A DNA stretch of 64,000 bases, from positions 3,754-67,753 of IMG/VR virus record IMGVR_UViG_3300036782_000001, one strand, 5' to 3'. A program made the position numbers and the translations under genes. Under the pieces are notes generated by a model. The model was not told the DNA's origin. It made no database searches and saw only the letters and a program-made list of their open reading frames with translations. Positions 1,704 to 31,177 of the stretch are shown one piece after another; within the stretch, counting starts at the first letter, position 1; every line of letters begins with the position of its first letter. The stretch is from a virus. Lineage: Duplodnaviria; Caudoviricetes.

Positions 1704-3548
1704 ATGGAACTGTATATAAACATAAGCAAAGGGATGCACACACTCAACACTGGTAAGCTGACACGTAAGCGTGTAATGGTTAAAGGGAAGAATGGTAGAA
1801 CGTTCTATCGTATGCAATGGGTGAATCCATGGGATGCCAGTACCGGTCATGGTGTGAGGGCAATACACAATGGTAAACAGTTAGATGAGGCAATACGACA
1901 TGGTATTACCAGACAGCCTAACCTACAGCAACACCTATCTCATCAAGGGATACACTCAACACTAGACTTGAAGGATAAGCTACACTTTGACCATCCTCTG
2001 TTCTTACCTGAGACAGAGGAGTCATCACAAGGGGCAATGTTCTTAGCCAACCATATACAGCATGGTAGTCAGAAGTACCTTGGTATGTTTGATAACGACA
2101 TCTACCAACACTCCAGAGAGATGAGCAAGATAGATGACATAACAGGTATGGAAGAGGCTGAACGCATGAGTTCACTAGGGGCTAAGCTACCTAGCTCTTT
2201 CCTTGAGACCTTAGATGAAGGCTCAACAGTGGATATAGGCTGGTCTGTATCTAAGATGAATGGTGCTGATATGGACAGAGCCAAGGAGTTAGCTAAGATG
2301 ACCTATGGTGAGGACAGTATCCAGTATAATGCCATTAAGGATATGGAGCCAGACCCAGATAAGCAAGAGCAAGGGGAACAGAAGGTAGAGCATGTAATAG
2401 AGCCTAAGGATGAGAAGCCTGCATACGGCACACCAGAGGACTACCGCCCACATTACCATACTCATGATGAGAAGATTAACAACATGACTGAGTGGCGTAG
2501 GGAAGCCACTGAGAAGGAGATGCAAGGGAAGAACAAAAAGGAAGCAATCACCCAGAGTATAGACTTTGATGAGTTGGAGAGTATGGATGAGGATACAGTA
2601 GCTGACATGCTAGAAGACCAAGACAAGTATGGTGACCTGCATGAGCAACATGAAACAGCAATGAAGCATATGCTTAACAGTCAGCTAGAGGCTGCTAAGG
2701 AGTCAGCTAAGGATGTCTTTGGTGAGCTATCACCTACAGCCATTGAGCATGTGTTCAGCTCACCTGAAGGTAAGTATACTGCTCACATATCATCCATTAA
2801 GCCTGACATAATGAACTTGGGCATGGGCAAGTATGATGTCAACTGGTCTATGAGTATCAAGCTTAAATCAAAGGATGGATACCATGCTGGTAACATCAAC
2901 CGTACAGTTGGACGTGACCATGATGGTTCACTGGTGGTGCATAACGACTTGCTAGAGGTGGATGAGGACTACCAGAACATAGGCATTGCAAGCAATGTGT
3001 ATAACAGAAGTGAACAGATGTGGAAGCATATGGCAAAGGGCAACAAGGTTAAGATAAGCATATGTGCTAACATCACAGTAGGTGCTTATGCATGGGCTGA
3101 CAAGAGCAAGGGCTTTGACTTTGCTGATAGCTATGAGCTAAAGGCTGCTAGGTCTGAGCTTAAGGACTTCATAAGTAACAACAACTGGGATGAAGAGGAA
3201 GTCATGCAAGCCTGTGGATATGAGAATGTGGATGAGTTAGAGCATGCTTGGGAGTTCGCTGAACTGGATGATGGGTACAGGTATGACCTAACACCACATG
3301 CCTTTGAGGATATCAAGGGTGATGCCCACTTGGGCAAGGCATTCATGCTCACTAGTAAGTCCTCATGGGAAGCTGAGAAGCATATCAATACTGATGGCAA
3401 GGCATACCAAGAGCAACTACGTGATGATAGTGTTGACGACTACCTAGCTGACACAGGGCAAGAGGACTTGGACTATGAAGACCTAGAGGACTTGGATGAC
3501 GTTAGTGATGAGGAACTAGAAGTGTTTAGGAGGAAGTATAATGAGTGA
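1704..3548 (+). CDS. Tagged putative virion cargo protein with C-terminal GNAT acetyltransferase and acidic tail
   Basis: Start moved from 1605 to ATG 1704 (MELYINISKG, matching the 25705 paralog); GNAT motif A YQNIGIA, ANITVGAYAW..GFDF. Confidence 0.75.
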   Translation: MELYINISKGMHTLNTGKLTRKRVMVKGKNGRTFYRMQWVNPWDASTGHGVRAIHNGKQLDEAIRHGITRQPNLQQHLSHQGIHSTLDLKDKLHFDHPLFLPETEESSQGAMFLANHIQHGSQKYLGMFDNDIYQHSREMSKIDDITGMEEAERMSSLGAKLPSSFLETLDEGSTVDIGWSVSKMNGADMDRAKELAKMTYGEDSIQYNAIKDMEPDPDKQEQGEQKVEHVIEPKDEKPAYGTPEDYRPHYHTHDEKINNMTEWRREATEKEMQGKNKKEAITQSIDFDELESMDEDTVADMLEDQDKYGDLHEQHETAMKHMLNSQLEAAKESAKDVFGELSPTAIEHVFSSPEGKYTAHISSIKPDIMNLGMGKYDVNWSMSIKLKSKDGYHAGNINRTVGRDHDGSLVVHNDLLEVDEDYQNIGIASNVYNRSEQMWKHMAKGNKVKISICANITVGAYAWADKSKGFDFADSYELKAARSELKDFISNNNWDEEEVMQACGYENVDELEHAWEFAELDDGYRYDLTPHAFEDIKGDAHLGKAFMLTSKSSWEAEKHINTDGKAYQEQLRDDSVDDYLADTGQEDLDYEDLEDLDDVSDEELEVFRRKYNE

Positions 3549-3705
3549 TAAGCTGAGACAGTTCACAAGTGTTAAGCCTAAGCATAAGCGTGAGGGAACA
3601 GAGGGATTACTCAAGTCTAAAGATGGCAAGACAATAAGAGATGACAGCTGGCTACACCCTAGTGCTGGCGTGAAGAGGAAGAACCCAGAGGTACGGGGTG
3701 GGTAG
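3541..3705 (+). CDS. 54-aa basic peptide coupled to the GNAT gene (not in ORF track)
   Basis: AGGAGG RBS; MSDKLRQFTSVKPKHKREGTEGLLKSKDGKTIRDDSWLHPSAGVKRKNPEVRGG; similar to the N-terminus of the 26990 protein. Confidence 0.7.
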   Translation: MSDKLRQFTSVKPKHKREGTEGLLKSKDGKTIRDDSWLHPSAGVKRKNPEVRGG

Positions 3706-3960
3706 GCACCACCCCCCTTCCTAGAAACATGGGGGGTGGTAAAGTTTTCTTTTTCGGGAGTATAAGGAATCCTGTTTCCTTTGGAGTCCCTAGATGCCCT
3801 CCAACCCGATGCCTTTACACACTACCCCCTACTTTTTCAAACCACCCCCACCCTTATTTCTACCCTACAAAAAAGTACCCCACCTCCTTTTTCTCTAAAG
3901 GAAACCTTATTTTCGATATTTATAGAGAAAACTTCCCTTATGACCGTTTTTTCAAAGGTA
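3706..3960. other. Non-coding C-rich/A-T-tract segment, candidate genome end or packaging region
   Basis: Hairpin ACCACCCCCC...GGGGGGTGGT followed by alternating C-runs and A/T-runs, unlike flanking DNA. Confidence 0.35.
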
Positions 3961-3978
3961 GAAGGGAGGGATTCTGAA

Positions 3979-4512
3979 GTGAAGAACCACTACACCATTG
4001 ATGGAGACACTACAACGATATACTGCAAGAGTAAGGGAGATATAATCGAGGTGCTCATTGATACCGAGGATTTACCGAGGTTACAAGAGTATAGGACTTG
4101 GTGCATCAATCTACCTTACGGCAAGCAAGTTAAGCCCTACGTTATCGCTGGGGTAAAGGGGAGTACAAAAAGAGCAACATTGCATAGGATGTTAATGGGA
4201 TTCCCTGAGGGCATGGTAGTTGACCATAGGGACGGTAACACCTTCAACAACAAGAAGGAAAACCTAAGAGTGGTAACTCAAAGGGAGAACATAGAGCACT
4301 GCTGGAAGGATAACCTGAGTAAAGGCTCTAAAAGGACTGCGTGTACGGAGGATAACCCTGTAGGGGTTGTCTGGCACAAAAGGGATAAGCGATGGATAGC
4401 ACGTATCAAGGTTGATGGCAAGCGTATAGACATTGGTAGGTTTAAGGAAAAGGCTGATGCTATCCATGCTAGACAAGAAGCCGAAAAAGAATACTGGGGT
4501 GACCAACAATGA
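3979..4512 (+). CDS. HNH homing endonuclease with C-terminal AP2 domain
   Basis: GTG start after GGGAGGG; LHR..M...VVDHRDGNTFNNKKENLR; AP2-like GVVWHKRDKRWIARI...IGRF...DAIHAR. Confidence 0.9.
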   Translation: MKNHYTIDGDTTTIYCKSKGDIIEVLIDTEDLPRLQEYRTWCINLPYGKQVKPYVIAGVKGSTKRATLHRMLMGFPEGMVVDHRDGNTFNNKKENLRVVTQRENIEHCWKDNLSKGSKRTACTEDNPVGVVWHKRDKRWIARIKVDGKRIDIGRFKEKADAIHARQEAEKEYWGDQQ

Positions 4513-4853
4513 CGCATATAAAGTCAGAACCGCCTACTCTTAACATCCATGGTATGAATATTCCTATAATTATACCTGGCAACATGAGATTTCAGATAAG
4601 GAATAGAACTGCCTACTTTGAACTGCATAGAATAATGCTACCTAAAGACCTTATGGGAGTTCTAACCAATCACGTATGGGCTGAAGCACGACTAAATATG
4701 TGGTTAGGCATGAGGTTCGCAGGTCAAGAGTATAACTGGATGGCATACAACGGTCACATAGGAATTAGTAGTTATGAGGAGAAAAGAGTAGAACAAGATA
4801 TGCTGGTATTGGAACACGTTCATTTCATATTACATTTAATAGGAGGAGAATAA
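4509..4853 (+). CDS. Hypothetical protein, tandem paralog family member 1
   Basis: 114 aa, coupled to HNH gene; shares N- and C-terminal strand patterns with the next three ORFs. Confidence 0.7.
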   Translation: MTHIKSEPPTLNIHGMNIPIIIPGNMRFQIRNRTAYFELHRIMLPKDLMGVLTNHVWAEARLNMWLGMRFAGQEYNWMAYNGHIGISSYEEKRVEQDMLVLEHVHFILHLIGGE

Positions 4854-4854
4854 A

Positions 4855-5205
4855 ATGGGAGTTACTGTTACTGAAAAGAGCACACTTAGTATTGATGGGG
4901 TAGAGGTAAGTCACGAGGGGTTAAAGCTAGAAATGGCACCAAATGGAGGCGCTATCATCAAGATTAGGTCTCTTAATATGACTATAGACGACTGGGAAGA
5001 GCTACAAACAGGTAGCCCAAAGGTGTCGGCTATGTATACCAGAAAAGTAGTTACTGATGGTGGAAAGGGTAGTACTGGCATTGCCAACCGAGCATTCACA
5101 GGTAAATTAGCTAAGATTAACTACCATGCCAAGGATACATTCGAGTATACAGTTGCGGTGGAATCAGTGACACTTACGGTTAACCCTAGTTGGGTGGTGG
5201 AGTAA
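4855..5205 (+). CDS. Hypothetical protein, tandem paralog family member 2
   Basis: RBS AGGAGG; 116 aa; ends VAVESVTLTV. Confidence 0.75.
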   Translation: MGVTVTEKSTLSIDGVEVSHEGLKLEMAPNGGAIIKIRSLNMTIDDWEELQTGSPKVSAMYTRKVVTDGGKGSTGIANRAFTGKLAKINYHAKDTFEYTVAVESVTLTVNPSWVVE

Positions 5206-5207
5206 GG

Positions 5208-5528
5208 GTGAGTAAATCTATCGTTCTGTTTGGTGACAAGCCTGTGGAATGTAAGGATGTATTCTTTAGTCTGAATAATGAGGGTGGCGTAACAGTCCTT
5301 ATAAACTCTATAATTGTGGAACGCAATGATAGTATGTTTATAAGAGATGTACAGACAAAGGGTCAGAGAGTAAAAGTTACTATGCAATATGGTTCAGATA
5401 CCATACTAGGTGCATCAGGAGTAATTGATTCGCTAAGGTTCTTTAGAGTACTGTGTCAGAAGAAGGTAGAGCTGAAGGACATAGGCATCGAACTGACAGA
5501 CGTTATTATATCAGGAGGTAGCAGATAA
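5208..5528 (+). CDS. Hypothetical protein, tandem paralog family member 3
   Basis: GTG at 5208 after GGAG; in frame with the track ORF. Confidence 0.7.
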   Translation: MSKSIVLFGDKPVECKDVFFSLNNEGGVTVLINSIIVERNDSMFIRDVQTKGQRVKVTMQYGSDTILGASGVIDSLRFFRVLCQKKVELKDIGIELTDVIISGGSR

Positions 5529-5872
5529 TGAGACCGTGGCAGAAAGCATACTTAGAGCAACTTACAGGCAATGTTAGTTTTAAGACAAAGAACACAGAAT
5601 TACTCATTGGAGGGGTACACACCAAGCACCAGATTGAACCCTACAGTGTAACTAGAGAACGTGGAGCATACTATGTTAAGTTCAAGAGAATGGTCATACC
5701 TTCTCCTATAATGGATGCTTTGATGAATACAGAACCATTGGAGTTTAAGCTAACAGGAGAGGGAGATGACCGTATTGAAGGTGAATGCTATCTACAGGCT
5801 TGCGTGGAAGGTGCTAGTAGTGAGCACTATAGGGCATTAGAAGACGTTTTATTCTTGATTCAACCAAAGTAA
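5528..5872 (+). CDS. Hypothetical protein, tandem paralog family member 4
   Basis: RBS AGGAGG; TAATG overlap; followed by a hairpin and U-tract. Confidence 0.75.
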   Translation: MRPWQKAYLEQLTGNVSFKTKNTELLIGGVHTKHQIEPYSVTRERGAYYVKFKRMVIPSPIMDALMNTEPLEFKLTGEGDDRIEGECYLQACVEGASSEHYRALEDVLFLIQPK

Positions 5873-5930
5873 TACGAGGGAGAGGACTTTTGGTCTTCTC
5901 CTTCTTTTAATGTGAAGGGAGGGAGAGACG

Positions 5931-6131
5931 ATGAAGAAGGTGGAAAACATAGAGTGGGCTGGACATTGTGCCGAGTGCTTTACATGTGGGGCGTTTGCAC
6001 CTAATATGAAGGAGTTCCACAAGCAACTAGACAAAGGACATTGGAGTAAGCGTCCATTAGCAGTAAACAATATGAGAGTCAGTCAGCAATATATGCATAA
6101 CTGTGAGAAAGCAAAGGAGGATAACAAATGA
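5931..6131 (+). CDS. Small hypothetical protein with CxxCxxC
   Basis: RBS GGGAGGG; HCAECFTCG. Confidence 0.65.
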   Translation: MKKVENIEWAGHCAECFTCGAFAPNMKEFHKQLDKGHWSKRPLAVNNMRVSQQYMHNCEKAKEDNK

Positions 6132-6538
6132 ATCCACTAGAGTCTCAAGTACTACTTGGATTAGCCCAACAAGGCATACATTTAAATCCACTAAGCCATG
6201 AGGAAAAACCAAGTAAGCCCAAACGTGAGGAACGTAGATTCAATATCAGCGATGATGAGTTAAGGGATTTAGCAATCAAGTTACAAAACATAGTAATCTG
6301 GAGAGGTTGTGGTGCTGGAGGTACATTCGATGAGAACTATCATACTCCAGAGTATCACTTATTCTCTGATGAATGGGAGCCATTCCATATAAGAGTGACT
6401 AGGAAGAAGGATGGCAGGTCTATACTTAGTGCCATGAATAATTACTACTGGTCAGGAACGGAGTATGATTATAAAGCTTTACTAAGGCTGATTGACAATC
6501 ATAACAAGTTACTGCCTTTAATGAGGAAGGGGAATTAA
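6128..6538 (+). CDS. Hypothetical protein
   Basis: RBS AAGGAGG, operon coupling. Confidence 0.75.
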   Translation: MNPLESQVLLGLAQQGIHLNPLSHEEKPSKPKREERRFNISDDELRDLAIKLQNIVIWRGCGAGGTFDENYHTPEYHLFSDEWEPFHIRVTRKKDGRSILSAMNNYYWSGTEYDYKALLRLIDNHNKLLPLMRKGN

Positions 6539-6539
6539 T

Positions 6540-6788
6540 ATGAAGAAAGCATTGATACTAGCAGGTTGCGTACTATTACTGGGGGCTTGTGATCCACCTA
6601 AGCCTCCTGAGTATAAAGAGACCCCACAAGGGTTTAAACCCATTGGTCAATATGAGGAGTCCCCGTACCGAACAATTAAGCTAGAAGACAAGGAAACAAC
6701 TTGCAGATACTTAATAACTGATGATGGGTATATTACCCCCGATTTAGTACAACCTGCTAAGTGTAAGGGGATGATGAAAGGTGAGTAG
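6540..6788 (+). CDS. Lipoprotein
   Basis: Signal peptide MKKALILAGCVLLLGAC with lipobox LGA-C. Confidence 0.75.
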   Translation: MKKALILAGCVLLLGACDPPKPPEYKETPQGFKPIGQYEESPYRTIKLEDKETTCRYLITDDGYITPDLVQPAKCKGMMKGE

Positions 6789-7044
6789 AATCATGACACC
6801 ATTCTTTGGTAAGTGGGATGATAATGAAGACAAGAATACTGTAGACCCTGGAGAGCCTAGACCACCTAGGAAGCATGTAAATATGTCAGAGAAGGACTTC
6901 AGGGTATCAGTACTAAAAGGTCTTGTAGCAATTGAGCATGCAATTCGTACTGGTAATAGACACTACTGGGCAAGTGACATGGAATATGCAGTGCGCATGG
7001 CACAGTCTATGAGGGAGGATGATGGTAATGAACAAGGCAGTTAA
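6781..7044 (+). CDS. Hypothetical protein
   Basis: Coupled ORF in the operon. Confidence 0.65.
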   Translation: MSRIMTPFFGKWDDNEDKNTVDPGEPRPPRKHVNMSEKDFRVSVLKGLVAIEHAIRTGNRHYWASDMEYAVRMAQSMREDDGNEQGS

Positions 7045-12955: not shown

Positions 12956-15790
12956 GTGATGAGCAGAGGTAGAAAGTGTTATATCCGCATAGACAACCCT
13001 AAAGGTATTAAAAAGAAGGATAAAAAGAAAGAGGAATTAGTACATGAATTAGGGCTAGAGAATTTCAAGAATGACCTACGCCCAGAGGTATGGAAGAGTA
13101 ATGAGCCAGAGCTGATTATTAAATCTGATGAGGAGTACATAGAAGAGTACTTTGACTTAGAGAAAATAATCCACGAGGAAGAGGTAGCAAAGGCAGGACG
13201 TGTCCATCTTCCTAGGGGTGCTAGACGTCACGCTTACAAAGTGCATTCTGACCACGGTGTAATTTACATTCCAGTCAATCGTTTGAAGCAGGTGTACCAA
13301 ACTCACCTAGCACTTCATAGGAGAAAAATCGCCCAAAACAAAGTTTCGATGCGAATGGGTAAGCCACTTCAACCCGTTGAAATCGGATATAACTATGATG
13401 TTCACGATGGACACCATAGATGGGAAGCCTCCAAAGAGTTAGGATACACACATGTTCCCTGTAAAGTAGTAGGAGATGACCCAGACAAGTTAAGGGACGC
13501 AAAAGAGAAGTATCGTGCTGTATGGAAGGCTGAAACTACTGAACAACTAGCAGAGACTCTATTACAGGACTTTGTGGATAAGATAACAGGTAAGAAACCT
13601 GTGTCCTTAGTACTTGATATCAACAAAGCCACTCTTAACAGAGGAAAGTTAGTTAAGAGACGTGTAATGGTTAAGGGTAAGGATGGAAAGGTCTTCTATC
13701 GTATGCAGTGGATTGACCCTAATGATGAGAAGGAAAATGTCCACCAAAAGGTACCTGACCAAGAGAATCACACAACATACAAGCATGATGATAAGTCAGT
13801 AAAGGAAATAGAGAAACGTCAGCACAACCGTTTCCCAGTAGTACAACATGAAGTAAAGCACTTCAAGAATAAGGAACATAATTACTCTACTGACAAGGAA
13901 GCCTACAATGAAGCTAAGGAGAAATACCACAGAGGTGAGAAGCTACCGCCTGTTAAGGTCAACCATAAAGGGGAGATACTTGAGGGACATCACCTTGTAG
14001 ACCTAGCTAGAGAGTTAGGATTAACCCATGCTCCTGCAATTGTATTAGGTAATCCTAAATTGAAGAAAGAGTATGAGGATGCACTAAAAGAGGACGTAAT
14101 GACTGAAGTTACCGATGAGGAAGGTAATAAGAAGGAAGTATCTGCTTCTGGTAAAGGTACCTCTGCTGATGGTACACAACGTGGTCAGCATATGGTGGTA
14201 GACGTTCCTGTAGAATATGTAGATGATATGGAACACTTCAAGCGTTATGTCAATAGGATGTATACTAAATCGTACATCATGGATTGTGCAGAAAAGGCTG
14301 GCATTACGTGGAATGATAAGAAAGCAGATGGAACCCTACTAACAGATGAGAAGATTCTATGGACTAGAGTTTTCAATGCTATCTCTGAACACATAGCTGC
14401 TGGTAACAAGTTTGAAGTGCCTCATGATGATAAGGACTCTAGTGCAAAGATGAAACAGATTAAGAAGGATGATGACCACAAGTTCTTCCTTATGTTCTGT
14501 AACAAGTTTAACTTTGACAGGGAAAAGATTAAGGACTGGTGTAGAGACCATGACCTTCTATGGAAAGAGAACCATAAAGACCCTGACATTGATTGGAAAA
14601 ACTGTGCTATGGCTATCAAGAAAGAATTATCTAAAGGTAAGATGCTGAATGGGGTACGTACAAGACGTAAACACCTTATGGAGGAAGCAAACACTATTGT
14701 AACAGATGCAGTTCGTGAACAGGTTAAAGCTCTTGGTAAGAAGTATGGCAAGACAGCTTTAGAAGAACAAGCACTAAAACAAGGTATTGAAGTAGACCTT
14801 TTAGATAAGAAAGGTAACGTAGTAGAGCACCCAGCTATCAGATGGATGAGGGTAGCGACTGCTATTCAGAAGCATATTGCCAAAGGTAATAAGTTTAAGA
14901 TGACTAATGACGATTTCGGTACAGAGGGAAGAATTCAAGCTGAAGAGTTTGATTATGGTGACAACGTTACTCTGACTCCACATGAGCGAGTAGGTATCGA
15001 TAGAGCCAAGCTTAACAGTAAGAAATTTGAACAACGTGCTAAGAAGTGGGCTACTAAGTCATTAGCTCTTGACCACGGTATTGACCCTAACAATACAGTG
15101 ATGGTAGATGAAGTGTATGATGCCTTTATTGAAGGTGCTCGTAATGCTAAGTTAATGGTACACTTTGACCCTACAGAATTACTAGATAGTGGTACATCTA
15201 TGCTAGAGGAAATGATGTCTTCAGGTAAGCTAAAGAACGATTTCCAATTAGATAGAGGGTATGATAAGGAGCATAGAGAGGTCATTGAACGTGATATCTA
15301 TGGTGATGACTTTGATGGTGCAGAAGACCATGAGCGCCCAGTATATGGTGTGCTAGACATATTCAATCAAGGCTTGAGCCTAGGACAACATGGTGGAGCA
15401 GCCTTAGTAATGAAGGAAGATGTTAAGAAACGTGCTTCTGGTACACCAAATGACTCTAACTCAATACCTTATGGCAAAGAGGGTAAATTAGTACACTCTG
15501 CTACAGACCCACATCACCTAGTAATACACCGTTGGTTTGGGCGTTGGAAAGAGCCTAAGAATGCTGATGGTAAGCGTAGACGTGCTATGAACTCCGTTAT
15601 TGAGGGTACAACATTCAATGACGATAAAGAGTACTTTGAAGCACAGGTACTTGGGGGAGTGGACTTGGCTAAGGATGTAGACCATGTTCTGGTACCTGAA
15701 CACTGGCAAAGTAATCCAGAGTGGCAAGACCATCATGAGCTAATGAAAATGTTTGCAGAGTCACAAGGGATAGGATTAAGATATGAATGA
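12956..15790 (+). CDS. Multidomain tagged cargo protein: two ParB/Srx-like domains, internal tag, three helical repeats, C-terminal DUF3626-like (ADP-ribosyltransferase-fold) domain
   Basis: VHDGHHRWEA and ILEGHHLVDLA; tag at about 13607-13720; C-terminus HFDP...ERPVYGVLD...DS...YFEAQVLGGVDLAKDV. Confidence 0.75.
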   Translation: MMSRGRKCYIRIDNPKGIKKKDKKKEELVHELGLENFKNDLRPEVWKSNEPELIIKSDEEYIEEYFDLEKIIHEEEVAKAGRVHLPRGARRHAYKVHSDHGVIYIPVNRLKQVYQTHLALHRRKIAQNKVSMRMGKPLQPVEIGYNYDVHDGHHRWEASKELGYTHVPCKVVGDDPDKLRDAKEKYRAVWKAETTEQLAETLLQDFVDKITGKKPVSLVLDINKATLNRGKLVKRRVMVKGKDGKVFYRMQWIDPNDEKENVHQKVPDQENHTTYKHDDKSVKEIEKRQHNRFPVVQHEVKHFKNKEHNYSTDKEAYNEAKEKYHRGEKLPPVKVNHKGEILEGHHLVDLARELGLTHAPAIVLGNPKLKKEYEDALKEDVMTEVTDEEGNKKEVSASGKGTSADGTQRGQHMVVDVPVEYVDDMEHFKRYVNRMYTKSYIMDCAEKAGITWNDKKADGTLLTDEKILWTRVFNAISEHIAAGNKFEVPHDDKDSSAKMKQIKKDDDHKFFLMFCNKFNFDREKIKDWCRDHDLLWKENHKDPDIDWKNCAMAIKKELSKGKMLNGVRTRRKHLMEEANTIVTDAVREQVKALGKKYGKTALEEQALKQGIEVDLLDKKGNVVEHPAIRWMRVATAIQKHIAKGNKFKMTNDDFGTEGRIQAEEFDYGDNVTLTPHERVGIDRAKLNSKKFEQRAKKWATKSLALDHGIDPNNTVMVDEVYDAFIEGARNAKLMVHFDPTELLDSGTSMLEEMMSSGKLKNDFQLDRGYDKEHREVIERDIYGDDFDGAEDHERPVYGVLDIFNQGLSLGQHGGAALVMKEDVKKRASGTPNDSNSIPYGKEGKLVHSATDPHHLVIHRWFGRWKEPKNADGKRRRAMNSVIEGTTFNDDKEYFEAQVLGGVDLAKDVDHVLVPEHWQSNPEWQDHHELMKMFAESQGIGLRYE

Positions 15791-25425: not shown

Positions 25426-25640
25426 TGGCTTTTACATTAATGAAATGGAATGAACAATACGGTGGAGATGCTAAGTTTGTAGTGCGAGATGATGATACTG
25501 GTAAACAAAGTATGTTTACCCCTGGTAGAGCACAAGATGTCGTCTGGACTAACAGTGACTTAGCCAATGCACCAGAGATGTCTAAGTGGAGTGACTTTGG
25601 TGATGAAACAGTAGACAATTTAGAAGATGTAGCATTTTAA
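25425..25640 (+). CDS. Small acidic protein
   Basis: ATG 25425 after GGGAGGT; terminator at about 25647-25680. Confidence 0.7.
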   Translation: MAFTLMKWNEQYGGDAKFVVRDDDTGKQSMFTPGRAQDVVWTNSDLANAPEMSKWSDFGDETVDNLEDVAF

Positions 25641-25704
25641 TTGTGTAAGCCCTTACAATAGTAAGGGCTTATTTTTATTTAGAGAAGTCGGGAGGTGGGT
25701 TAGA

Positions 25705-27018
25705 ATGGAGTTAATTATAAACATCAACAAAGCCAGAGTCCTTAATACAGGCAAACTAGTTAAACGTGCTGTTCAAGTAAAAGGACAGGGTGGTAGAACA
25801 TTCACTCGTATGCAATGGATAAATCCTGATAAAGGTAAACCAGTAATGGAGACATCACATGAAGGACATGAAGACCCTCATGCACATAGAGTAGCTAACA
25901 TGAGTCCTGAACAGAAGCATTCTATGGTCAATCATTTTGTATCTAATAATAGGGATGAAGCGAATGACCTAGCAATGACTACAGGACAGAAGAGAGCACC
26001 TTATGTAGCAGACCATCAGGTTACCCAGCACTTAATGGATCATGCACACAAGATACCTCATGAATACGTGAAAGACCACTTGGATAGTAAAGAGTCAAAG
26101 CCTAGTCTAAATGTAGTGGGAAGTGACCTTCCAGAGAAGGAAGTTAACAAGCGTATGGGTAAGGAAGGTAGCTTAGACTTGTCCAAACTCAATACAGGGG
26201 CTTCAATGTATGACGACGACATCTTTAAAGAAGATACAGAGTATGCTAGTGAGGAAGGTCTTAACCCAGAGAAGGAATTTAGACATGTATTCAAAGACGT
26301 TACTAAAGCTGGTATTGAGAATGTATTTTCTGACCCTAAGGGTAACTGGACTGCACAGGTATCAGGTTATGACCTATTCCAGGATGGGGATAACGTGAAC
26401 TGTGGCTTAAACATGACCCTATACGACAAGGATGGGGAGAAGATGGGACATATCATACGTTCAGCTTACCATGACGCAGATGGCACTCTACAGATACACA
26501 ATGATGAGATGGAGTTAAAGACACAGTATCATGGTAAAGGGGTAGCCCAAACTATATACGACAGGTCTGAACAACTATGGAGACACCTATCAGGTGGGCA
26601 CAAGGTGGAGATAAACCTGACAGCCAATATCAGTGTTGGTGCATATGCATGGTCTAAGAAAGGCTTTGATTTTGCTAATGACAAGGAGCTAAAGATGGCT
26701 AGGGAAGAACTGAAACAATTCTGTAGAGGCAATGATATTAGCCTAGCAGATGTGCTTAAGAAGAGTGGACACAAGAGCGTAGATGATTTAAACCACTCAT
26801 GGCAGTTCTCTACACTACAGAATGGTAAGTCCTATGAACTTGACAAAGTTATAGACCCTAAATATAAAAAGGACGTTGAAGGTAGAGAAGGTCATTTTGG
26901 TAAGGCTTTCATGCTAGGTGGACTAGGTATATGGGACGGTAAAAAGACACTAAACGATGACCATTCTTCAGAAAAAGTAGGTGAAATACATGGCAGAGCA
27001 ACTAAAAAGAACAGCTAG
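25705..27018 (+). CDS. Tagged putative virion cargo protein with GNAT acetyltransferase (paralog of 1704..3548)
   Basis: N-terminal tag MELIININKA..LNTGKLVKR..RMQWINP; YHGKGVA, ANISVGAYAWSKKGFDF. Confidence 0.78.
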   Translation: MELIININKARVLNTGKLVKRAVQVKGQGGRTFTRMQWINPDKGKPVMETSHEGHEDPHAHRVANMSPEQKHSMVNHFVSNNRDEANDLAMTTGQKRAPYVADHQVTQHLMDHAHKIPHEYVKDHLDSKESKPSLNVVGSDLPEKEVNKRMGKEGSLDLSKLNTGASMYDDDIFKEDTEYASEEGLNPEKEFRHVFKDVTKAGIENVFSDPKGNWTAQVSGYDLFQDGDNVNCGLNMTLYDKDGEKMGHIIRSAYHDADGTLQIHNDEMELKTQYHGKGVAQTIYDRSEQLWRHLSGGHKVEINLTANISVGAYAWSKKGFDFANDKELKMAREELKQFCRGNDISLADVLKKSGHKSVDDLNHSWQFSTLQNGKSYELDKVIDPKYKKDVEGREGHFGKAFMLGGLGIWDGKKTLNDDHSSEKVGEIHGRATKKNS

Positions 27019-30000
27019 AAAAGTACCTCATTACCGTCACGGTAGAGAAGGTATGAGTAGTGAAGGTGATGCTTGGATGCATCCAGAAGTGTTTGATGAC
27101 GATTACGAACGAAAAACGAATTCTGACATAAGACGTTATATGAGTTCTCTGACGAAATCCAATCGTTTGGTTGTTGACATTAACAAGGCTGAAGCACCGA
27201 AAACTGGTAGGTCTTTGAATAGAGGAAAATTGGTTAAGAGAGCGGTACAAGTGAAAGGGAAAGATGGTAAGATGTTCACTCGTATGCAATGGGTAGACCC
27301 GAATGATGACCACCAAATACAGTCTCACCCTCTACACCAAGAGCCTTCACTGGAAGGTACTAAGCCTACTTCTTCTAAAGACCCTAGTGAGATGTCACGA
27401 GAAGAATACGTAGACCATCACGTTCGTAAGAAGATGTCTAAAGAAGAGAAATACGATATGCTAGAGAAACATGGTGTTGAATGGAAGCGAAATAACCATG
27501 AAGCTATTGACCATAAGAATGCTGTAATGGCTCTTAAAAATCATCTATTAAAGAATCCTCACCTTATTGGTGCACACAACAATAAGGAAGCAAAGGACAT
27601 TGAGAAGCCAATAACAGGTACAGATGATGAGAATGAGTTCTGGAATATGTGGGATAAGGCTGACAGAGAGGGTTCATATGAGCTTATGCGTAAGCTGGGT
27701 ATTATCGAAAAGGATGAGCAAGACCCTAGATTCGACCCTAATGTAAAGGAAAATATGAAGCCTATTAAGCACTTACTGAACGTTACTCGCTTGAAGAAGC
27801 ATCTACGTGAGAATAGACATCTCATGACTGACCCTGAGTATCTTCCTACAAAGGATACAAATGCAACTAAGGCTGCTAAAAAGCAATTAGAAGATAAGAA
27901 ACAAGGTATCAAGCCATCTCCTGCACAAGCAGGTGGTAATGATGTCCACACCATCTTAGCCAATATGCCTAGGGAACAGTTGTATAAGCTTATGAAGGAT
28001 GCAGGTATAGCAGATGAAGACCCACTTATCACAGGAGATAAGATGGCAGGGGTTAAGCACCACCTTAATATGATTAAGTTCAAGAAGCACCTAGAACACC
28101 ACCCTGAGATACTAACTCACAATCCTGATGGTTCTCTTACAGAAGGTGAGAAAGAACGTATTGCTTCCCTACCTGAAGAGGCTAAAGAACGTGACCGTAT
28201 TAAGAGCTTTGTGTCTGATATGTCTCAAGAGGACGTAGAGGATGCACTAGACAAATACTCTGACCATGATGCAGTTAAGAGTAGGACTAAATCTGACCAT
28301 GAGGGTATTAACAGTATGCATGCAAAGGGTGCTCTAGTTAAAGTATTCTCTGAAGATAAGGAAAGAATGAAGCCTTATCAAAAAGAAGTAAGTGCTGACA
28401 GACTAATGAAGATGCGTATTGGTAATAAGGTTATGGGTAAATTCCTACGTCATGCATTTGGCTTCAAGGGTATAGGAGACCTAAAAAGACCTGAAGATGA
28501 TGAGTTCCGTACTACAGAGTGGCAATGGCATGGTAATGGTGGTAGTGGCTCTGCTATGATGGAGAAGAACGATGATGGAGATGCAGTACTAACTGTTATA
28601 GACTATGGGGAAGATGGTCAAGGGTGGAACGAATTCCAAGTCCCTCTACAGGAGGTTAAGGACTTTGTAGACGATTTGAGAAAAGGGAACGAACAAAAGA
28701 AAAAGGTTGAGCAGAAGGAAGTTCCCCTACAGAAGAAGCCAGCAGACCAGATAGAGAAAGCCCTAAACGAGAGTTTCGAAAAGAACTACACTCCAGAGGT
28801 TGGGGAGGTCATGAAGTCCCACTTTACTAAACTGTGGAATAATGCAGACCGCTCTGGAAAGATTAGTGACATCGTGAAGAAGTCTATGAATATGACTAAG
28901 GGTACTATGAGGAACTTACTTAAAGAATGGGGTGTTCCAGTCTCTCCTACAGGAGATATTATTAAGACTAACGACCCTAACTTTAAGTCTATGGTATTCA
29001 AGGATGAGATTCAAGATAAGAAGTCTAAGAGTGCTATGGATTACCTTAAAGCAGCAGACATAGGAGTAGACCGCAAAGCTACACCTGATGCTCCCTATGA
29101 CCCTTATGTACTACACGAATCAGCTAAGAACTGGACAGAAGGGGAGAAGGCACAGGCACGTAAGGAGCTATTAAAGAATGCAATTCATGTTAAGACGGGT
29201 ATTACACATGAAGACCATGACAAACGTATAGCAAAACTTACAGACCACCTTCATTCATCTACGACTCATATACCATTTGACTTGATGAGTCACTTAATGG
29301 CAAATGGTATGAAAGTTAAGTTCTCTGATGTAGATGCTCACGGTAATGCTCACACAGGGGCTAACTACAATGGTAAGGACAATGCTATTTATCTTGACTC
29401 TCAGTACTATCATTCTACGTCAGTGTTTAAAGACCATCCACATGACCACATACCAGAGAAGACAGAACATCCTACTATCAAGGGAGCTAAATACGGTCAC
29501 TGGAGTATAGGAGAGAATATGGTGCATGAATCTGCCCACGCTATTGACAGATTCCTAAGTGGTGGGGATTCCTACCTAAACTGGGATAAAGGTCAAGGTA
29601 GTACTTATGCTAAAGACCATTTAAATACTGTTCCTGAACATTATAAGAAGAAAGTTGAACAGTCTAACCCTGATAAGGAGATTAGATACAGCAAGGAAGG
29701 AAAGTATTTTTATGTTTTAGATGAGTGGATGTCCAACTATGAGGGACGTGTCTATGGAGAGTATCAAAAGCTAAATCCCGATTACGTTCACTCTGACAAT
29801 GGTACAGGTAAGATGTATGATAAGAAGTTCCAAGGTGTGGAAGGTATGCATGGTACTGAACACTGGGCTGAATCGGTAGCAGGTTATGGTAATGCTATTC
29901 ACTCTTACCAACGTTGGAAAGATATGAATCCAGGTAATAAGTCTACATCCATGGATGAGTGGGCTGAACAGATGCATAAGCAGTATTCACAAAAGGGCTT

Positions 30001-30250
30001 TGGTACAGCTAATGCAGAAGGTCAAAACTATAAAGCTGGTACAAGCACTAGACCAATGGAATCTTATGGATGGCAATACCACACAATGAAACAACACTAT
30101 CCTGAACTATTTGGTGCAATGCAGTCCATCTTTAATAGACCCGACTTTTTAGGAAGTAAGGGACAGAGCCGAACAGAGTCAATTCAGCATGGAAACTCAG
30201 CTAAGAAATCTCTAGGCTTATTCGTTGATTTGGGAGGGAGCAAGGCATGA
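26990..30250 (+). CDS. Tagged multidomain cargo protein with helical repeats and C-terminal zincin metallopeptidase
   Basis: ATG 26990 after AGGTGA; tag at about 27167-27301; HESAH at 29525-29539 and downstream EHWAES. Confidence 0.75.
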   Translation: MAEQLKRTARKVPHYRHGREGMSSEGDAWMHPEVFDDDYERKTNSDIRRYMSSLTKSNRLVVDINKAEAPKTGRSLNRGKLVKRAVQVKGKDGKMFTRMQWVDPNDDHQIQSHPLHQEPSLEGTKPTSSKDPSEMSREEYVDHHVRKKMSKEEKYDMLEKHGVEWKRNNHEAIDHKNAVMALKNHLLKNPHLIGAHNNKEAKDIEKPITGTDDENEFWNMWDKADREGSYELMRKLGIIEKDEQDPRFDPNVKENMKPIKHLLNVTRLKKHLRENRHLMTDPEYLPTKDTNATKAAKKQLEDKKQGIKPSPAQAGGNDVHTILANMPREQLYKLMKDAGIADEDPLITGDKMAGVKHHLNMIKFKKHLEHHPEILTHNPDGSLTEGEKERIASLPEEAKERDRIKSFVSDMSQEDVEDALDKYSDHDAVKSRTKSDHEGINSMHAKGALVKVFSEDKERMKPYQKEVSADRLMKMRIGNKVMGKFLRHAFGFKGIGDLKRPEDDEFRTTEWQWHGNGGSGSAMMEKNDDGDAVLTVIDYGEDGQGWNEFQVPLQEVKDFVDDLRKGNEQKKKVEQKEVPLQKKPADQIEKALNESFEKNYTPEVGEVMKSHFTKLWNNADRSGKISDIVKKSMNMTKGTMRNLLKEWGVPVSPTGDIIKTNDPNFKSMVFKDEIQDKKSKSAMDYLKAADIGVDRKATPDAPYDPYVLHESAKNWTEGEKAQARKELLKNAIHVKTGITHEDHDKRIAKLTDHLHSSTTHIPFDLMSHLMANGMKVKFSDVDAHGNAHTGANYNGKDNAIYLDSQYYHSTSVFKDHPHDHIPEKTEHPTIKGAKYGHWSIGENMVHESAHAIDRFLSGGDSYLNWDKGQGSTYAKDHLNTVPEHYKKKVEQSNPDKEIRYSKEGKYFYVLDEWMSNYEGRVYGEYQKLNPDYVHSDNGTGKMYDKKFQGVEGMHGTEHWAESVAGYGNAIHSYQRWKDMNPGNKSTSMDEWAEQMHKQYSQKGFGTANAEGQNYKAGTSTRPMESYGWQYHTMKQHYPELFGAMQSIFNRPDFLGSKGQSRTESIQHGNSAKKSLGLFVDLGGSKA

Positions 30251-30624
30251 AGGTAGTTATTCACAAAGACGGAAAATTAGGTACGGTAAAATATAGCAAA
30301 GATGGTCAAGCTATGGTGAGCCACCCTGATGCTAAGGTTAGGAAGGATGTAAAGGATTACTTGGATACTGAACGAGAGTTTACTGTAGCAAACCCTAATA
30401 CAGACCCTGATGTAGTTGGTTCTAGGAGGAAGCTTTATGCTTCCCCTAAAGCCAATGAAGATACAATGTCTATGGCTTTATGTGAGATGTTCCACCATAC
30501 AGGGGTGCATGTAGACTGGTCTGGTAAGTTATCTAAGGATTTCTTAGGACAGAAGGACAAGAACAGTAAGGCAGATAAGCCTATTGAAAAATCAACAGTA
30601 GACGATTTCGATATTATAAACTAG
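30247..30624 (+). CDS. Small partner protein downstream of the metallopeptidase
   Basis: ATGA overlap, RBS GGGAGGGAG. Confidence 0.7.
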   Translation: MKVVIHKDGKLGTVKYSKDGQAMVSHPDAKVRKDVKDYLDTEREFTVANPNTDPDVVGSRRKLYASPKANEDTMSMALCEMFHHTGVHVDWSGKLSKDFLGQKDKNSKADKPIEKSTVDDFDIIN

Positions 30625-30634
30625 GAGGGCTAAC

Positions 30635-31177
30635 ATGAACGATGACACTTTGTTGGTAATATCGCCCAAGCTTATGGACATCCAGAAGGGTAAGAGTGAC
30701 CGTAATGGATTAGTACAACAGATACTAACATATGTACGAGATGGTAGAACAATAACTCGTAAACAGTGGGTACGTAGTGAGTTTGCAGACCACGCTAAGA
30801 AAAATGAGGAAGAAAAGAAAGACGTACTATTACGTGAGCAAGAAAGGGAAAGACGTAAGGAAGCTAAGAAGAATGATGAACAGAATGCGAAAATGGCTAC
30901 TCAAGATAAACGAGCACGTAAGAAGAAGATAAAAGAGAAGGAAAAGATGGAAGGGCATGGGGAAGGTACTAAGCATGTTATCCATGTAGGGGAATACGCT
31001 AAGAAGCTAGCAGACCAAAAGAAAAAGCGTATGCAGGAAGAGAAGGATAAGAAGCATAAGCAACAAGGCGATAAGAAGAAGGATAACAAGAAGAAGGATA
31101 AACATGGCTCCTTTGGACAGGCTAAACAGACCAGAGAAGATAATAAAGCAAGTGACAATATGTCTCTTGGTAAGTAG
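30635..31177 (+). CDS. Highly basic/charged protein with a divergent N-terminal tag (putative internal DNA-condensing protein)
   Basis: MDIQKGKSDRNGLV...RDGRTITRKQWV, then Lys/Glu-rich low-complexity sequence. Confidence 0.7.
   Translation: MNDDTLLVISPKLMDIQKGKSDRNGLVQQILTYVRDGRTITRKQWVRSEFADHAKKNEEEKKDVLLREQERERRKEAKKNDEQNAKMATQDKRARKKKIKEKEKMEGHGEGTKHVIHVGEYAKKLADQKKKRMQEEKDKKHKQQGDKKKDNKKKDKHGSFGQAKQTREDNKASDNMSLGK

What the first reader, a model, noticed from the sequence alone, without database searches (positions are those of the whole stretch)
1704..31177. Shared capsid-loading tag on five proteins with different enzymatic payloads: a candidate protease-matured virion effector system
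Seen: five dispersed ORFs carry a ~40-aa motif. 1704 LYINISKG.MHTLNTGKLTRKRVMVKGKNGRTFYRMQWVNP; ~13607 LVLDINKA.TLNRGKLVKRRVMVKGKDGKVFYRMQWIDP; 25705 LIININKA.RVLNTGKLVKRAVQVKGQGGRTFTRMQWINP; ~27167 LVVDINKA...LNRGKLVKRAVQVKGKDGKMFTRMQWVDP; divergent 30635 LMDIQKG..DRNGLV...DGRTITRKQWV. Each starts with [ILV]xK[AG], matching the [ILV]xK[SAG] pattern at the capsid N-terminus (LNK|A), portal (LSKS, IMKS), protease (IQKS) and a dozen scaffold sites. Payloads are two GNATs, ParB-ParB plus a DUF3626-like ART fold, an HExxH zincin, and a basic low-complexity protein. Known: Listeria phage A511 capsid is cleaved at a Lys-Ser bond, T4 internal proteins use a cleaved capsid-targeting sequence, and GNAT/ART/zincin/ParB are recurrent domains of phage polyvalent proteins. 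Inference: the tag is a modular address label that packs host-modifying enzymes into the prohead, where the protease processes them for injection with the DNA.
Basis: partly seen in the sequence, partly recalled or inferred. Interest (0 to 1): 0.9.

Follow-up and report, generated by a model that had tools for sequence, protein, structure and literature searches.

The report
Shared protease-site tag on phage cargo proteins
Five otherwise unrelated proteins of a Bacillus phage begin a module with the same 40-residue tag, which carries the cutting motif of the phage's head protease, so they are probably loaded into the virus head and trimmed there, though no experiment shows this yet.

Summary
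The window is a CP-51-like Bacillus myophage (Herelleviridae). Five proteins share a tag made of L-Y-I-D-L-x-K|[AGS] followed by a basic beta-hairpin ending R-M-Q-W-V-x-P. There is no sixth copy.

A profile of the tag finds 217 proteins among 1.84 billion representatives. It finds none in 185,579 cellular genomes, and no Pfam or PDB entry covers it.

The phi-x-K|[SAG] motif also lies near the N-termini of portal, protease, scaffold and capsid. The capsid site is K24|A25, at the residue number of K24|S25 in Listeria and Staphylococcus relatives. The motif is 5 to 8 times enriched in protease and scaffold.

In relatives, tagged genes follow the large terminase or precede the portal gene. Payloads are GNAT (fold-supported), ParB plus DUF3626, a conserved HExxH domain, and a basic tail. 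Other phages fuse the GNAT payload to MuF, a known head module.

Best reading (0.55): a T4-CTS-like head-loading and release module for an S78 prohead protease. Packaging, cleavage and the division of roles within the tag are inferred. If cleavage is where predicted, the hairpin stays on the mature protein.

This is a new variant of a known kind.

The parts
23..1699 (+). Large terminase subunit. In relatives it is followed directly by the P1 and P2 tagged genes.
   Evidence: Pfam GpA_ATPase E 2.4e-19. Synteny.
1704..3548 (+). P1. It has the tag at the N-terminus, then a conserved His-rich extension of about 70 aa, then a GNAT-like C-terminal domain. An alternative start at ATG 1680 would add 8 residues.
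1704..1829 (+). Tag copy 1: MELYINISK|G ... RMQWVNP.
12956..15790 (+). P2. Domain order is ParB-like, tag, ParB-like, helical repeats, DUF3626 (the SopF-type family).
   Evidence: Pfam DUF3626 E 2.3e-7 at 30.6 bits against a 27-bit cut-off. Pfam ParB_N is below its cut-off. PHROG ParB-like families match.
13604..13720 (+). Tag copy 2, internal: VSLVLDINK|A ... RMQWIDP.
25645..25672 (+). Terminator-like hairpin (12-pair stem followed by a T run) just upstream of P3. No comparable terminator follows before the capsid gene.
25705..27018 (+). P3. It has the tag at the N-terminus, a helical linker and a GNAT-fold C-terminal domain. A strong ribosome-binding site (GGGAGGTGGG) precedes the ATG.
25705..25827 (+). 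Tag copy 3: MELIININK|A ... RMQWINP.
   Evidence: AF2 places strands at residues 19-26 and 32-40, and residues 1-15 have pLDDT below 50.
26981..30250 (+). P4. It has a leader of about 60 aa, the tag, helical repeats and a C-terminal domain with a conserved HExxH (HESAH at residue 849).
   Evidence: HExxH in 25 of 25 homologs.
27164..27301 (+). Tag copy 4: ..LTK|SNRLVVDINK|A ... RMQWVDP, with a second upstream K|S site.
30247..30624 (+). Conserved untagged 125-aa ORF between P4 and P5.
   Evidence: Syntenic in relatives. No Pfam family matches.
30635..31177 (+). P5. It has a divergent tag and a K/E-rich basic tail. It is the only tagged protein that SPO1-like phages also have, directly upstream of the portal gene.
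30671..30778 (+). Tag copy 5, divergent: LMDIQK|G ... TRKQWVRS.
31268..32857 (+). Portal protein, with DLSK|S and DIMK|S in its first 40 residues.
   Evidence: Pfam Phage_portal. K39-S40 are invariant in 5 relatives. The motif appears.
32916..33680 (+). Prohead serine protease, Peptidase_S78. It has ADADIQK|S near its N-terminus and 9 phi-x-K-[SAG] sites.
33694..34515 (+). Scaffolding protein. It has LDADINK|S at residues 8-14 and 14 phi-x-K-[SAG] sites (51 per 1000 residues).
34533..35936 (+). Major capsid protein. The predicted maturation cut is K24|A25.
   Evidence: The site lines up with K24|S25 of Listeria phage P100plus and Staphylococcus phage 812.

Best explanation
The tag is a two-part head-loading and processing module for a phage with an HK97-type (Peptidase_S78) prohead protease.

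Part 1 is a short hydrophobic peptide ending in the protease's cleavage motif, L-Y-I-D-L-x-K|[AGS]. It sits either at the N-terminus, typically 9 residues long, or just after another phi-x-K|S site. Part 2 is a basic beta-hairpin (N-x-x-K-L-V-K-K-x-V-Q-V-K-G-K-N-G-K-x-F-T-R-M-Q-W-V-D-P).

Proposed course of events:
1. The five proteins are made with the head genes.
2. They enter the prohead with portal, scaffold, protease and capsid protein.
3. The protease that trims those head proteins cuts them at phi-x-K|[AGS]. This frees them from the assembly core and splits multi-module proteins such as P2 into separate pieces.
4. They leave with the DNA at infection and act as host-modifying or anti-defence enzymes: GNAT acyltransferases, ParB-type nuclease/NTPase plus a DUF3626 ART-like domain, a zincin, and a basic DNA-associated protein.

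Shown here: the module, its anatomy, its distribution, the shared motif, the gene neighbourhoods and the payload folds. Inferred: cleavage, packaging and injection. It is also inferred which part acts as the address. The removed peptide is the closer analogue of the T4 CTS. The hairpin stays on the mature protein and may dock to an acidic partner or to DNA.
For: 1. Site conservation. The motif phi-x-K-[AGS] precedes the hairpin in 165 of 170 tags from 165 proteins. P1 is K in 100%, P3 is L/I/M in 95%, P4 is D in 70%, and P1' is A, G or S.

2. Fixed peptide length. K is at residue 9 in 45 of 71 N-terminal tags. Of 93 internal tags, 58 carry a second K[SAG] site 5-14 residues upstream: P1' is S in 51 of the 58 and P3 is hydrophobic (L/M/I/V/F) in 52 of the 58. 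Random windows in the same proteins gave 20.8 +/- 4.0, with a maximum of 30 in 200 trials.

3. The same motif marks the head proteins. D-phi-x-K-[SAG] occurs 12 times in the window's 72 genes, against 4.1 +/- 2.1 in shuffles. Seven of the 12 are three tag sites or lie in the first 40 residues of portal, protease and scaffold. The density of phi-x-K-[SAG] is 51 per 1000 residues in scaffold and 35 per 1000 in protease, against 6.3 per 1000 overall.

4. Capsid K24|A25 sits at the same residue number as K24|S25 in P100plus and phage 812. A Lys|Ser cut is reported for A511 capsid; this is recalled, and the paper was not held.

5. The site survives sequence drift. In the Exiguobacterium phage the five orthologs have LTK|S, LVK|S, IQK|A, LFK|A and LQK|G.

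6. The protease is Peptidase_S78.

7. Synteny. The orders TerL-P1-P2 and P3-P4-orf-P5-portal-protease-scaffold-capsid hold in 20 of 27 IMG/VR loci and in 11 of the 13 metagenome loci analysed out of 23 returned. They also hold in the Exiguobacterium phage.

8. A terminator lies upstream of P3 and none comparable follows before the capsid gene.

9. The P3/P1 GNAT payload forms the C-terminus of a MuF/minor-capsid-2 protein next to the terminase genes and a 576-aa unannotated ORF in Bacillus phage PBC5. It is also joined to MuF in a Pseudomonas phage.

10. Proteins with two tags look like fusions of tagged units: P0022-P0025 and P0029.

11. No confirmed tag was found in 185,579 cellular genomes.

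12. AF2 models residues 1-15 of P3 and 1-16 of P1 as disordered, followed by a hairpin.

13. Precedents exist. One is the T4 CTS. Another is the N-terminal 30 residues of P1 DarB, which suffice for capsid targeting (passages of PMC9024508).
Against: - No virion proteomics, N-terminal sequencing or packaging test was available. The CP-51 and JL/Shanette proteome papers are not held.
- GenBank annotators call the orthologs 'hypothetical protein', not virion protein.
- If the cut is where predicted, the conserved hairpin is not removed. So 'tag equals address' is not established, and a basic hairpin would also suit DNA binding.
- In the window, P2 lies 9.4 kb from P1, among small ORFs and next to a sigma-factor gene. 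Its timing may therefore differ.
- The L-Y-I residues at P7-P5 are conserved in tags but not in the head-protein sites. The peptide therefore does more than specify cleavage, and what it does is unknown.
- Trypsin also cuts after K, so published tryptic data could not confirm these sites even if available.
- The GNAT fold matches are weak in E-value (best 5.7e-3 against PDB, none at or below 0.001), although they are consistent.
Confidence: 0.55

Rival explanations
1. Division of labour. Only the short L-Y-I-D-L-x-K peptide is the capsid-targeting and release signal, as in T4. The hairpin is a nucleic-acid-binding clamp, or a clamp for an acidic partner. It keeps the mature cargo on the packaged DNA so that the cargo leaves with it.
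For: The predicted cut lies before the hairpin. The hairpin consensus has seven K/R and one D. P5 is essentially a hairpin plus a K/E-rich basic tail and is the only tagged protein in SPO1-like phages. The peptide is 9 residues long in 45 of 71 N-terminal tags, close in length to the T4 CTS (T4 length recalled). Nachito's pre-portal 866-aa protein starts directly with a degenerate hairpin and has no peptide.
Against: The two parts are almost never separated: 165 of 170 tags have both. No DNA-binding family or solved structure matches the hairpin. The hairpin is absent from cellular DNA-binding proteins.
Confidence: 0.3
2. The tagged proteins are not injected effectors. They are internal head or core components that act in assembly or DNA organisation, as DarA and Hdf line the phage P1 capsid. 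The tag is then their anchoring element.
For: In P1, 55 DarA-Hdf pairs bind the inner capsid surface and the DNA (abstract of PMC12810830). P5 and the untagged ORF at 30247 are conserved next to the portal gene. P5 occurs even in SPO1-like phages that lack the enzyme payloads.
Against: Four of the five carry enzyme-like payloads typical of conflict systems: GNAT, ParB, DUF3626 and HExxH. Payloads vary widely between relatives: 37 clusters among 178 payload segments, most with no Pfam family. SPO1-like phages build heads without P1-P4.
Confidence: 0.15
3. The phi-x-K|[AGS] sites in the tagged proteins are cut by P4's own HExxH zincin, not by the prohead protease. This would be autoprocessing or trans-processing of polyvalent proteins, as proposed for MPTase domains.
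For: HExxH is conserved in 25 of 25 P4 homologs. The polyvalent-protein survey proposes MPTase autoproteolysis before or after packaging (passages of PMC5512222).
Against: The same motif marks capsid, scaffold, protease and portal in Herelleviridae that have no P4, namely CampHawk, P100plus, 812 and Bastille. CampHawk keeps the site in its P5 ortholog. Scaffold and protease are saturated with the motif, which fits the prohead protease's known task.
Confidence: 0.08
4. The proteins act only in the infected cell and are never packaged. The tag is a shared interaction or localisation element, or a degron cut late by the head protease to switch them off.
For: No virion data exist. The orthologs are annotated as hypothetical. 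P2 in the window lies among small genes next to a sigma factor.
Against: The tagged genes are tightly linked to the terminase and portal-protease-scaffold-capsid genes across diverged relatives. The GNAT payload is fused to MuF elsewhere. The paired cleavage motifs resemble propeptide excision.
Confidence: 0.12

Closest known systems
Phage T4 capsid targeting sequence (CTS) on internal proteins IPI-III and Alt, removed by the gp21 prohead protease
   Same: A short N-terminal peptide is shared by several unrelated head-internal proteins. It ends in the same cleavage motif that the prohead protease uses on capsid and scaffold proteins. The cargo includes host-modifying enzymes. The predicted removed peptide here, about 9 residues, has about the same length.
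   Different: There is no sequence relation. The protease family differs (Peptidase_S78 here; T4 gp21 belongs to another family, recalled). The cut is after Lys, not Glu. This module has a second conserved part, the basic hairpin, that would stay on the cargo. It also occurs internally and repeatedly, bracketed by two sites. The T4 CTS is proven by reporter packaging; here nothing has been tested.
Phage P1 Dar system (DarA, Hdf, DdrA, DdrB, DarB, Ulx) and the N-terminal packaging signal of DarB
   Same: Antirestriction-type cargo is loaded into the head. The ParB-like and metallopeptidase domains resemble those of DdrB. An N-terminal 30-residue signal suffices for capsid targeting (PMC9024508 passages). 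DarA is processed. DarA and Hdf contact both capsid and DNA (PMC12810830 abstract).
   Different: No tag is described as shared between the P1 cargo proteins in the passages read. Loading there is stepwise through DarA and Hdf. No homolog of DarA-N or Hdf was looked for or seen here.
Polyvalent proteins of phages and conjugative elements (Iyer et al. 2017, PMC5512222)
   Same: The domain repertoire matches: GNAT, ART, ParB/DdrB-like, zincin MPTase and Rho-N/HeH-like DNA-binding modules. The genes lie next to virion genes. Packaging and injection are predicted, and proteolytic release of domains is proposed.
   Different: The survey uses MuF, portal fusions and similar modules as the head link. 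In the main text, searches for CP-51, Shanette and DUF3626 gave 0 occurrences, and the four 'hairpin' mentions among the passages shown concern other domains. Its supplementary files could not be seen. Here the link is a separate 40-aa tag, and the payloads are spread over five genes.
MuF / SPP1 gp7 minor head proteins with C-terminal effector domains
   Same: The architecture is a head-incorporation module joined to a variable enzymatic payload, encoded next to the portal gene. The very GNAT-like payload of P3 and P1 is the C-terminal domain of a MuF protein in Bacillus phage PBC5.
   Different: None of the five proteins has a MuF or minor-capsid-2 domain. The tag is far smaller and unrelated in sequence.

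Membership tests
T4-type capsid targeting sequence system (functional class) | A short peptide shared by several otherwise unrelated head-internal proteins | tested here: met
   There are five copies in one phage. The profile finds 217 proteins. The peptide-plus-hairpin anatomy holds in 165 of 170 tags.
T4-type capsid targeting sequence system (functional class) | The peptide ends in the cleavage motif that the prohead protease uses on capsid and scaffold | tested here: met
   This is met by sequence only. The motif phi-x-K|[SAG] is shared with the capsid K24|A25 site and with the portal, protease and scaffold N-termini, and it is enriched in scaffold and protease. Actual cleavage was not observed.
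T4-type capsid targeting sequence system (functional class) | Tagged proteins are present, in processed form, in purified virions | not testable with these tools
   The proteome papers for CP-51 and JL/Shanette are not held. Annotations say 'hypothetical'.
T4-type capsid targeting sequence system (functional class) | The peptide suffices to load a foreign protein into the head | not testable with these tools
   This needs a reporter-fusion experiment.
T4-type capsid targeting sequence system (homology) | Sequence relation to the T4 CTS and a gp21-type protease | tested here: not met
   The protease is Pfam Peptidase_S78 and the cut is after Lys. The tag matches no Pfam family. It works like the T4 CTS but is not a member of that family.
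Polyvalent / virion-delivered effector proteins (Iyer et al. 2017) | Several effector-type domains (GNAT, ART, ParB, MPTase) in proteins encoded beside virion genes | tested here: met
   P2 has ParB-like domains plus DUF3626. P3 and P1 have the GNAT fold. P4 has a conserved HExxH.
Polyvalent / virion-delivered effector proteins (Iyer et al. 2017) | A known head-link module (MuF, portal fusion) in the same polypeptide | tested here: not met
   No MuF, minor-capsid-2 or portal domain is present in the five proteins. MuF is found only in distant phages that carry the same GNAT payload.
Substrates of Peptidase_S78 (HK97-type) prohead protease | An S78 protease is encoded in the head module | tested here: met
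   PF04586 matches at E 3.8e-8, 34.1 bits against a 21-bit cut-off.
Substrates of Peptidase_S78 (HK97-type) prohead protease | Experimentally mapped cut after Lys in this phage group | not testable with these tools
   The A511 Lys|Ser capsid cut is recalled. The paper was not held. Only the alignment of capsid N-termini was done.
GNAT acyltransferases (payload of P1 and P3) | GNAT fold | tested here: met
   In the Foldseek PDB list for P3, GNAT acetyltransferases predominate. The other top entries, M. tuberculosis ICL2, carry an acetyl-CoA-binding domain. Best E is 5.7e-3, TM to target is 0.4-0.48, and 0 hits reach E 0.001. BFVD acetyltransferase hits were found for P1. Pfam finds no GNAT family, and catalytic residues were not examined.
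DUF3626 (SopF-type) domain (payload of P2) | Pfam model match above the gathering score | tested here: met
   The match is 30.6 bits against a 27-bit cut-off, covering profile positions 2-117 of 301 only. The family also appears in 14 of 145 other tagged proteins. ADP-ribosyltransferase activity of the family is recalled and was not tested.

The most novel reading that the evidence does not exclude
The tag is a portable, sequence-defined 'load into the head, release by the head protease' cassette of Herelleviridae-like phages of Gram-positive bacteria. Any protein, or string of proteins, that acquires it becomes virion cargo. The prohead protease doubles as a polyprotein-processing enzyme that cuts cargo units apart at paired phi-x-K|S/A/G sites. 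On this reading, the 200-plus tagged proteins, most with no known family, form a ready-made catalogue of injected anti-host and anti-defence effectors. The tag itself would be a tool for loading chosen proteins into such phages.
Probability: 0.4. Interest if true: 0.8.

Novelty: new variant of a known kind. Interest (0 to 1): 0.68.

Why it matters
Capsid targeting signals have been worked out in only a few Gram-negative phages, such as T4 and P1 DarB. A conserved, searchable signal for an S78-protease myophage group of Firmicutes would do three things.

1. It would give a sequence rule for predicting which phage proteins travel in the virion. A profile search already lists 217 proteins, mostly of unknown function.
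2. It would define the cleavage specificity of the Herelleviridae prohead protease (phi-x-K|S/A/G) from comparative data. It would also predict mature N-termini for capsid, scaffold, portal and protease.
3. It would make the question of what these phages inject besides DNA directly testable, using reporter fusions and N-terminomics.

Even if the packaging idea fails, the module remains an unannotated, widespread and strongly conserved protein element that deserves a family entry.

Tried and rejected
**Complex prediction.** Portal, scaffold and the first 60 residues of P3 were folded together, with alignments. The result was 'no answer': score 0.00, partner fold uncertain, controls not run. It counts neither for nor against binding.

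**ESM Atlas.** A search with P3 residues 1-60 gave no usable hit and no model.

**PDB sequence searches.** The tag profile gave only chance-level matches (best E 0.15). P2 gave no match.

**Pfam on tagged proteins.** Pfam was run on 145 tagged proteins, 74 and 71. It named few payloads. DUF3626 matched 14, ParB_N 2, and single proteins matched Topoisom_I, Fibritin_C and others. P0099 (2715 aa, Lipoprotein_17 repeats) is a false positive of the profile search and was dropped.

**Payload clustering.** Single-linkage clustering gave 14 clusters and 37. It is blurred by small shared helical modules, so it is only a rough measure of diversity.

**tblastn of single tags against 50,697 phage records.** The CP-51 group and one Exiguobacterium phage were the only hits (8 records, 7). 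The wider family is so far metagenomic.

**Promoter scan.** It gave fewer promoter-like sites than shuffles. The one site before P3 overlaps the ribosome-binding site and the start codon, so it was rejected as a promoter.

**Literature.** Searches found no description of this tag or of a Herelleviridae capsid targeting signal. That is the basis for calling it undescribed. Subscription papers and all supplementary files were not searchable. These include the polyvalent-protein alignments and the Bc431v3 proteome table.

**Rejected idea.** The copies are not recent DNA repeats: codons differ at about half of the identical residues.

**Counts and dropped rows.**
- In one search, 13 of the 23 metagenome loci were analysed. 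L048, L049, L061, L067 and L069 were left out as short. L050, L052, L053, L057 and L068 were left out as duplicates of IMG/VR contigs or of the CP-51 type.
- In some searches, P0006 was dropped because it is identical to the window's P3.
- The 150 proteins listed are the best of 217. The other 67 were not seen.

Full report
**What the window is**

Megablast of 25000-31500 finds 7 phage records. All are Bacillus phages of the CP-51/JL/Shanette group (Siminovitchvirus, Herelleviridae) at 85-89% identity. The record holding the window is a 67.7-kb viral contig, estimated 49% complete.

Genes run on the + strand. In order they are:
- Large terminase, 23-1699.
- P1, 1704-3548.
- About 9.4 kb of small ORFs.
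- P2, 12956-15790.
- A sigma factor, tRNAs, a DUF4127-SLH protein and PhoH.
- After a strong terminator-like hairpin at 25645-25672: P3, P4, a 125-aa ORF, P5, portal, Peptidase_S78 protease, scaffold and capsid.

This order rests.

**The observation**

Translations show the five copies exactly as reported. A six-frame regex gave 6 matches. Five are the tags, and one lies in a stop-filled frame. An HMM of the five finds only them among 808 six-frame ORFs; the next best hit has E 0.11. The whole record has 5 copies.

Three results show that the resemblance is homology and not chance:
- PHROG profiles of each family hit the tag region of the others.
- The SPO1-like ortholog of the divergent P5 tag matches the other tags by BLASTP.
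- The Exiguobacterium phage vB_EalM-132 has all five orthologs, each with a tag.

Among the four strong copies, amino-acid identity is 61-82% while synonymous sites are scrambled. The copies are therefore old and held by selection on the protein.

**Anatomy**

A profile search of 1.84 billion representatives gave 217 proteins at E <= 1e-3 and 46 at E <= 1e-10. Of the 150 listed, one is a false positive (P0099).

I anchored 169-170 tags from 165 proteins on the invariant Trp. The hairpin consensus is N-T-A-K-L-V-K-K-P-V-Q-V-K-G-K-N-G-K-T-F-T-R-M-Q-W-V-D-P. Conservation is G 96%, R 97%, Q 95% and W 100%.

Upstream, 165 of 170 tags have phi-x-K-[AGS], with the wider consensus L-Y-I-D-L-x-K|[A/G/S]. 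Three of the five exceptions start right at the hairpin and may be truncated gene calls.

Two features point to a discrete short peptide:
- In N-terminal tags, K is residue 9 in 45 of 71.
- In internal tags, 58 of 93 have a second K[SAG] site 5-14 residues upstream. P1' is S in 51 of the 58 and P3 is hydrophobic in 52 of the 58. Control windows gave 20.8 +/- 4.0.

So a 9-12-residue peptide is bounded either by the N-terminus or by a second cleavage-like site.

AF2 models of P3 (mean pLDDT 78) and P1 (73) give a disordered stretch at residues 1-15 or 1-16. A two-stranded hairpin of moderate confidence follows.

**Link to the head protease**

The protease is Peptidase_S78. In the window's 72 genes, D-phi-x-K-[SAG] occurs 12 times against 4.1 +/- 2.1 in shuffles. 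It sits at three tag sites and in the first 40 residues of portal (twice), protease and scaffold. Scaffold and protease carry 14 and 9 phi-x-K-[SAG] sites, which is 51 and 35 per 1000 residues against 6.3 overall.

Capsid reads ..VDNLNK24|A25. Listeria phage P100plus and Staphylococcus phage 812 read ..K24|S25 at the same residue number. CampHawk, Nachito and Bastille have the same pattern. The paper was not held.

The scaffold and protease N-terminal sites persist in relatives with 46-70% identity. Portal K39-S40 is invariant in 5 sequences.

This is strong comparative evidence that phi-x-K|[SAG] is the specificity of the prohead protease. It is good but indirect evidence that the tags are its substrates.

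**Gene context**

In relatives the tagged genes lie in two blocks: TerL-P1-P2, and P3-P4-orf-P5-portal-protease-scaffold-capsid. This holds in:
- 20 of 27 IMG/VR loci. The other 7 are P2 alone, of the CP-51 arrangement.
- 11 of the 13 metagenome loci analysed. The other 2 are too short.
- The Exiguobacterium phage.

SPO1-like CampHawk has only the P5 ortholog, directly before the portal gene.

A second, metagenome-only group of tags carries a conserved leader of about 30 residues. It lies downstream of a terminase 50% identical to the window's, next to a large helicase-like protein.

**Payloads**

- P3's C-terminal domain has a GNAT fold. GNAT acetyltransferases predominate in the PDB match list, with weak E-values.
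- P1's C-terminal domain is homologous to it and matches viral acetyltransferases.
- P2 has PHROG ParB-like matches and Pfam DUF3626. DUF3626 is the domain family of SopF (passages of PMC6682159). Its ADP-ribosyltransferase activity is recalled.
- P4's HExxH is conserved in 25 of 25 homologs.
- P5 is a basic tail. All 56 homologs are unnamed or labelled only 'hypothetical/uncharacterized protein'.

The GNAT payload also forms the C-terminus of a MuF/minor-capsid-2 protein in the terminase-proximal block of Bacillus siphophage PBC5. It is joined to MuF in a Pseudomonas phage as well. The same cargo therefore travels with a known head module elsewhere.

Proteins with two tags look like fusions of units that are separate genes here: P0022-P0025, and P0029, which fuses a P4-like part to a P5-like part.

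**Specificity**

The pattern scan of 185,579 cellular genomes gave 9 pattern matches, none confirmed. No Pfam family, PDB chain or Atlas cluster covers the tag.

**Interpretation**

The best-supported reading is a head-loading and release module analogous to the T4 CTS, which is known from T4 and P1 (passages of PMC9024508; abstract of PMC12810830). It is adapted here to an S78 protease that cuts after Lys.

The cut precedes the hairpin. The removed nonapeptide is therefore the closer CTS analogue, and the hairpin remains on the cargo. Whether the hairpin docks to the acidic scaffold or portal regions, or to DNA, is open. The one complex prediction gave no answer.

The rivals are:
- A DNA-binding hairpin with a separate targeting peptide.
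- Structural core proteins.
- Processing by the P4 zincin.
- Purely intracellular proteins.

They are listed with their tests in the rival explanations. Packaging, cleavage and injection remain inferences until virion N-terminomics and reporter fusions are done.

**Verdict**

This is a new variant of a known kind: a CTS-like system, unrelated in sequence, with an added retained hairpin and polyprotein-like use. Interest is 0.68.

Noticed in passing
window 13900-15000 (P2), 27400-28400 (P4); also P0116, P0117, P0138 and L033:9386-11986: A small helical module of the form G-[IV]-x-W-K-x-x-x-H-x-x-I-[ND]-[WH]-[MK]-[RN]-A-x-M-A recurs, often several times, in P2, P4 and many unrelated tagged payloads. 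It may be a HeH/Rho-N-like DNA-binding unit. It causes spurious 'transcriptional regulator' PHROG hits (phrog_12391).
   Followed up: partly
window 1830-2050 (P1 residues about 43-115): P1-type tags are followed by a conserved, His-rich extension of about 70 aa (S-T-G-H-G-V-R-x-I ... H-P ... Q-G ... H-P-x-F-Y-L-P-E-T-x-E-S). It appears in 29 tagged proteins with different C-terminal parts. AF2 models it confidently, with pLDDT about 80-92. Its function is unknown.
   Followed up: partly
L031:12683-14578 (CP-51 gp194 and gp195): In phage CP-51 the P1 ortholog is annotated as two ORFs. One is a 72-aa piece, apparently carrying the tag. The other is a 539-aa payload piece. This may be a natural split or a frameshift.
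   Followed up: no
window 21169-23295: This is a 708-aa phage protein with a DUF4127 domain and two S-layer homology (SLH) repeats. That is an unusual cell-wall-anchoring domain for a phage gene lying between the tRNA region and PhoH.
   Followed up: no
window 3729-12767: About 9 kb of some 30 small ORFs separates P1 from P2. In the Exiguobacterium phage and in several metagenomic relatives, TerL, P1 and P2 are directly adjacent. The block therefore looks like an insertion into the terminase-cargo module.
   Followed up: partly
L037-L040 (IMG/VR contigs): A second tag group is known only from metagenomes. It has a conserved leader (M-x-x-x-F-[IV]-N-x-G-x-D ... L-K-S ... [DE]-L-x-K-A) before the hairpin. 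Two or three tagged genes lie in a row downstream of a terminase 50% identical to the window's, beside a phrog_62 helicase-like protein.
   Followed up: partly
L033:9386-11986 (Bacillus phage Nachito): The 866-aa protein just upstream of the Nachito portal gene starts directly with a degenerate hairpin (M-A-G-K-Q-G-L-V-P-V-Q-R-Q-V-M-R-N-G-R-S-F-I-T-T-V-Y-I-N-P). It has no L-Y-I-D-L-x-K peptide. The HMM misses it.
   Followed up: partly
portal N-termini: window 31268-31390; L032, L033, L034, L035, L036: A phi-x-K|[SA] site 30-50 residues into the portal protein is present in all Herelleviridae examined: CampHawk, Nachito, Bastille, P100plus, 812 and EalM-132. This suggests the portal N-terminus is trimmed too.
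   Followed up: no
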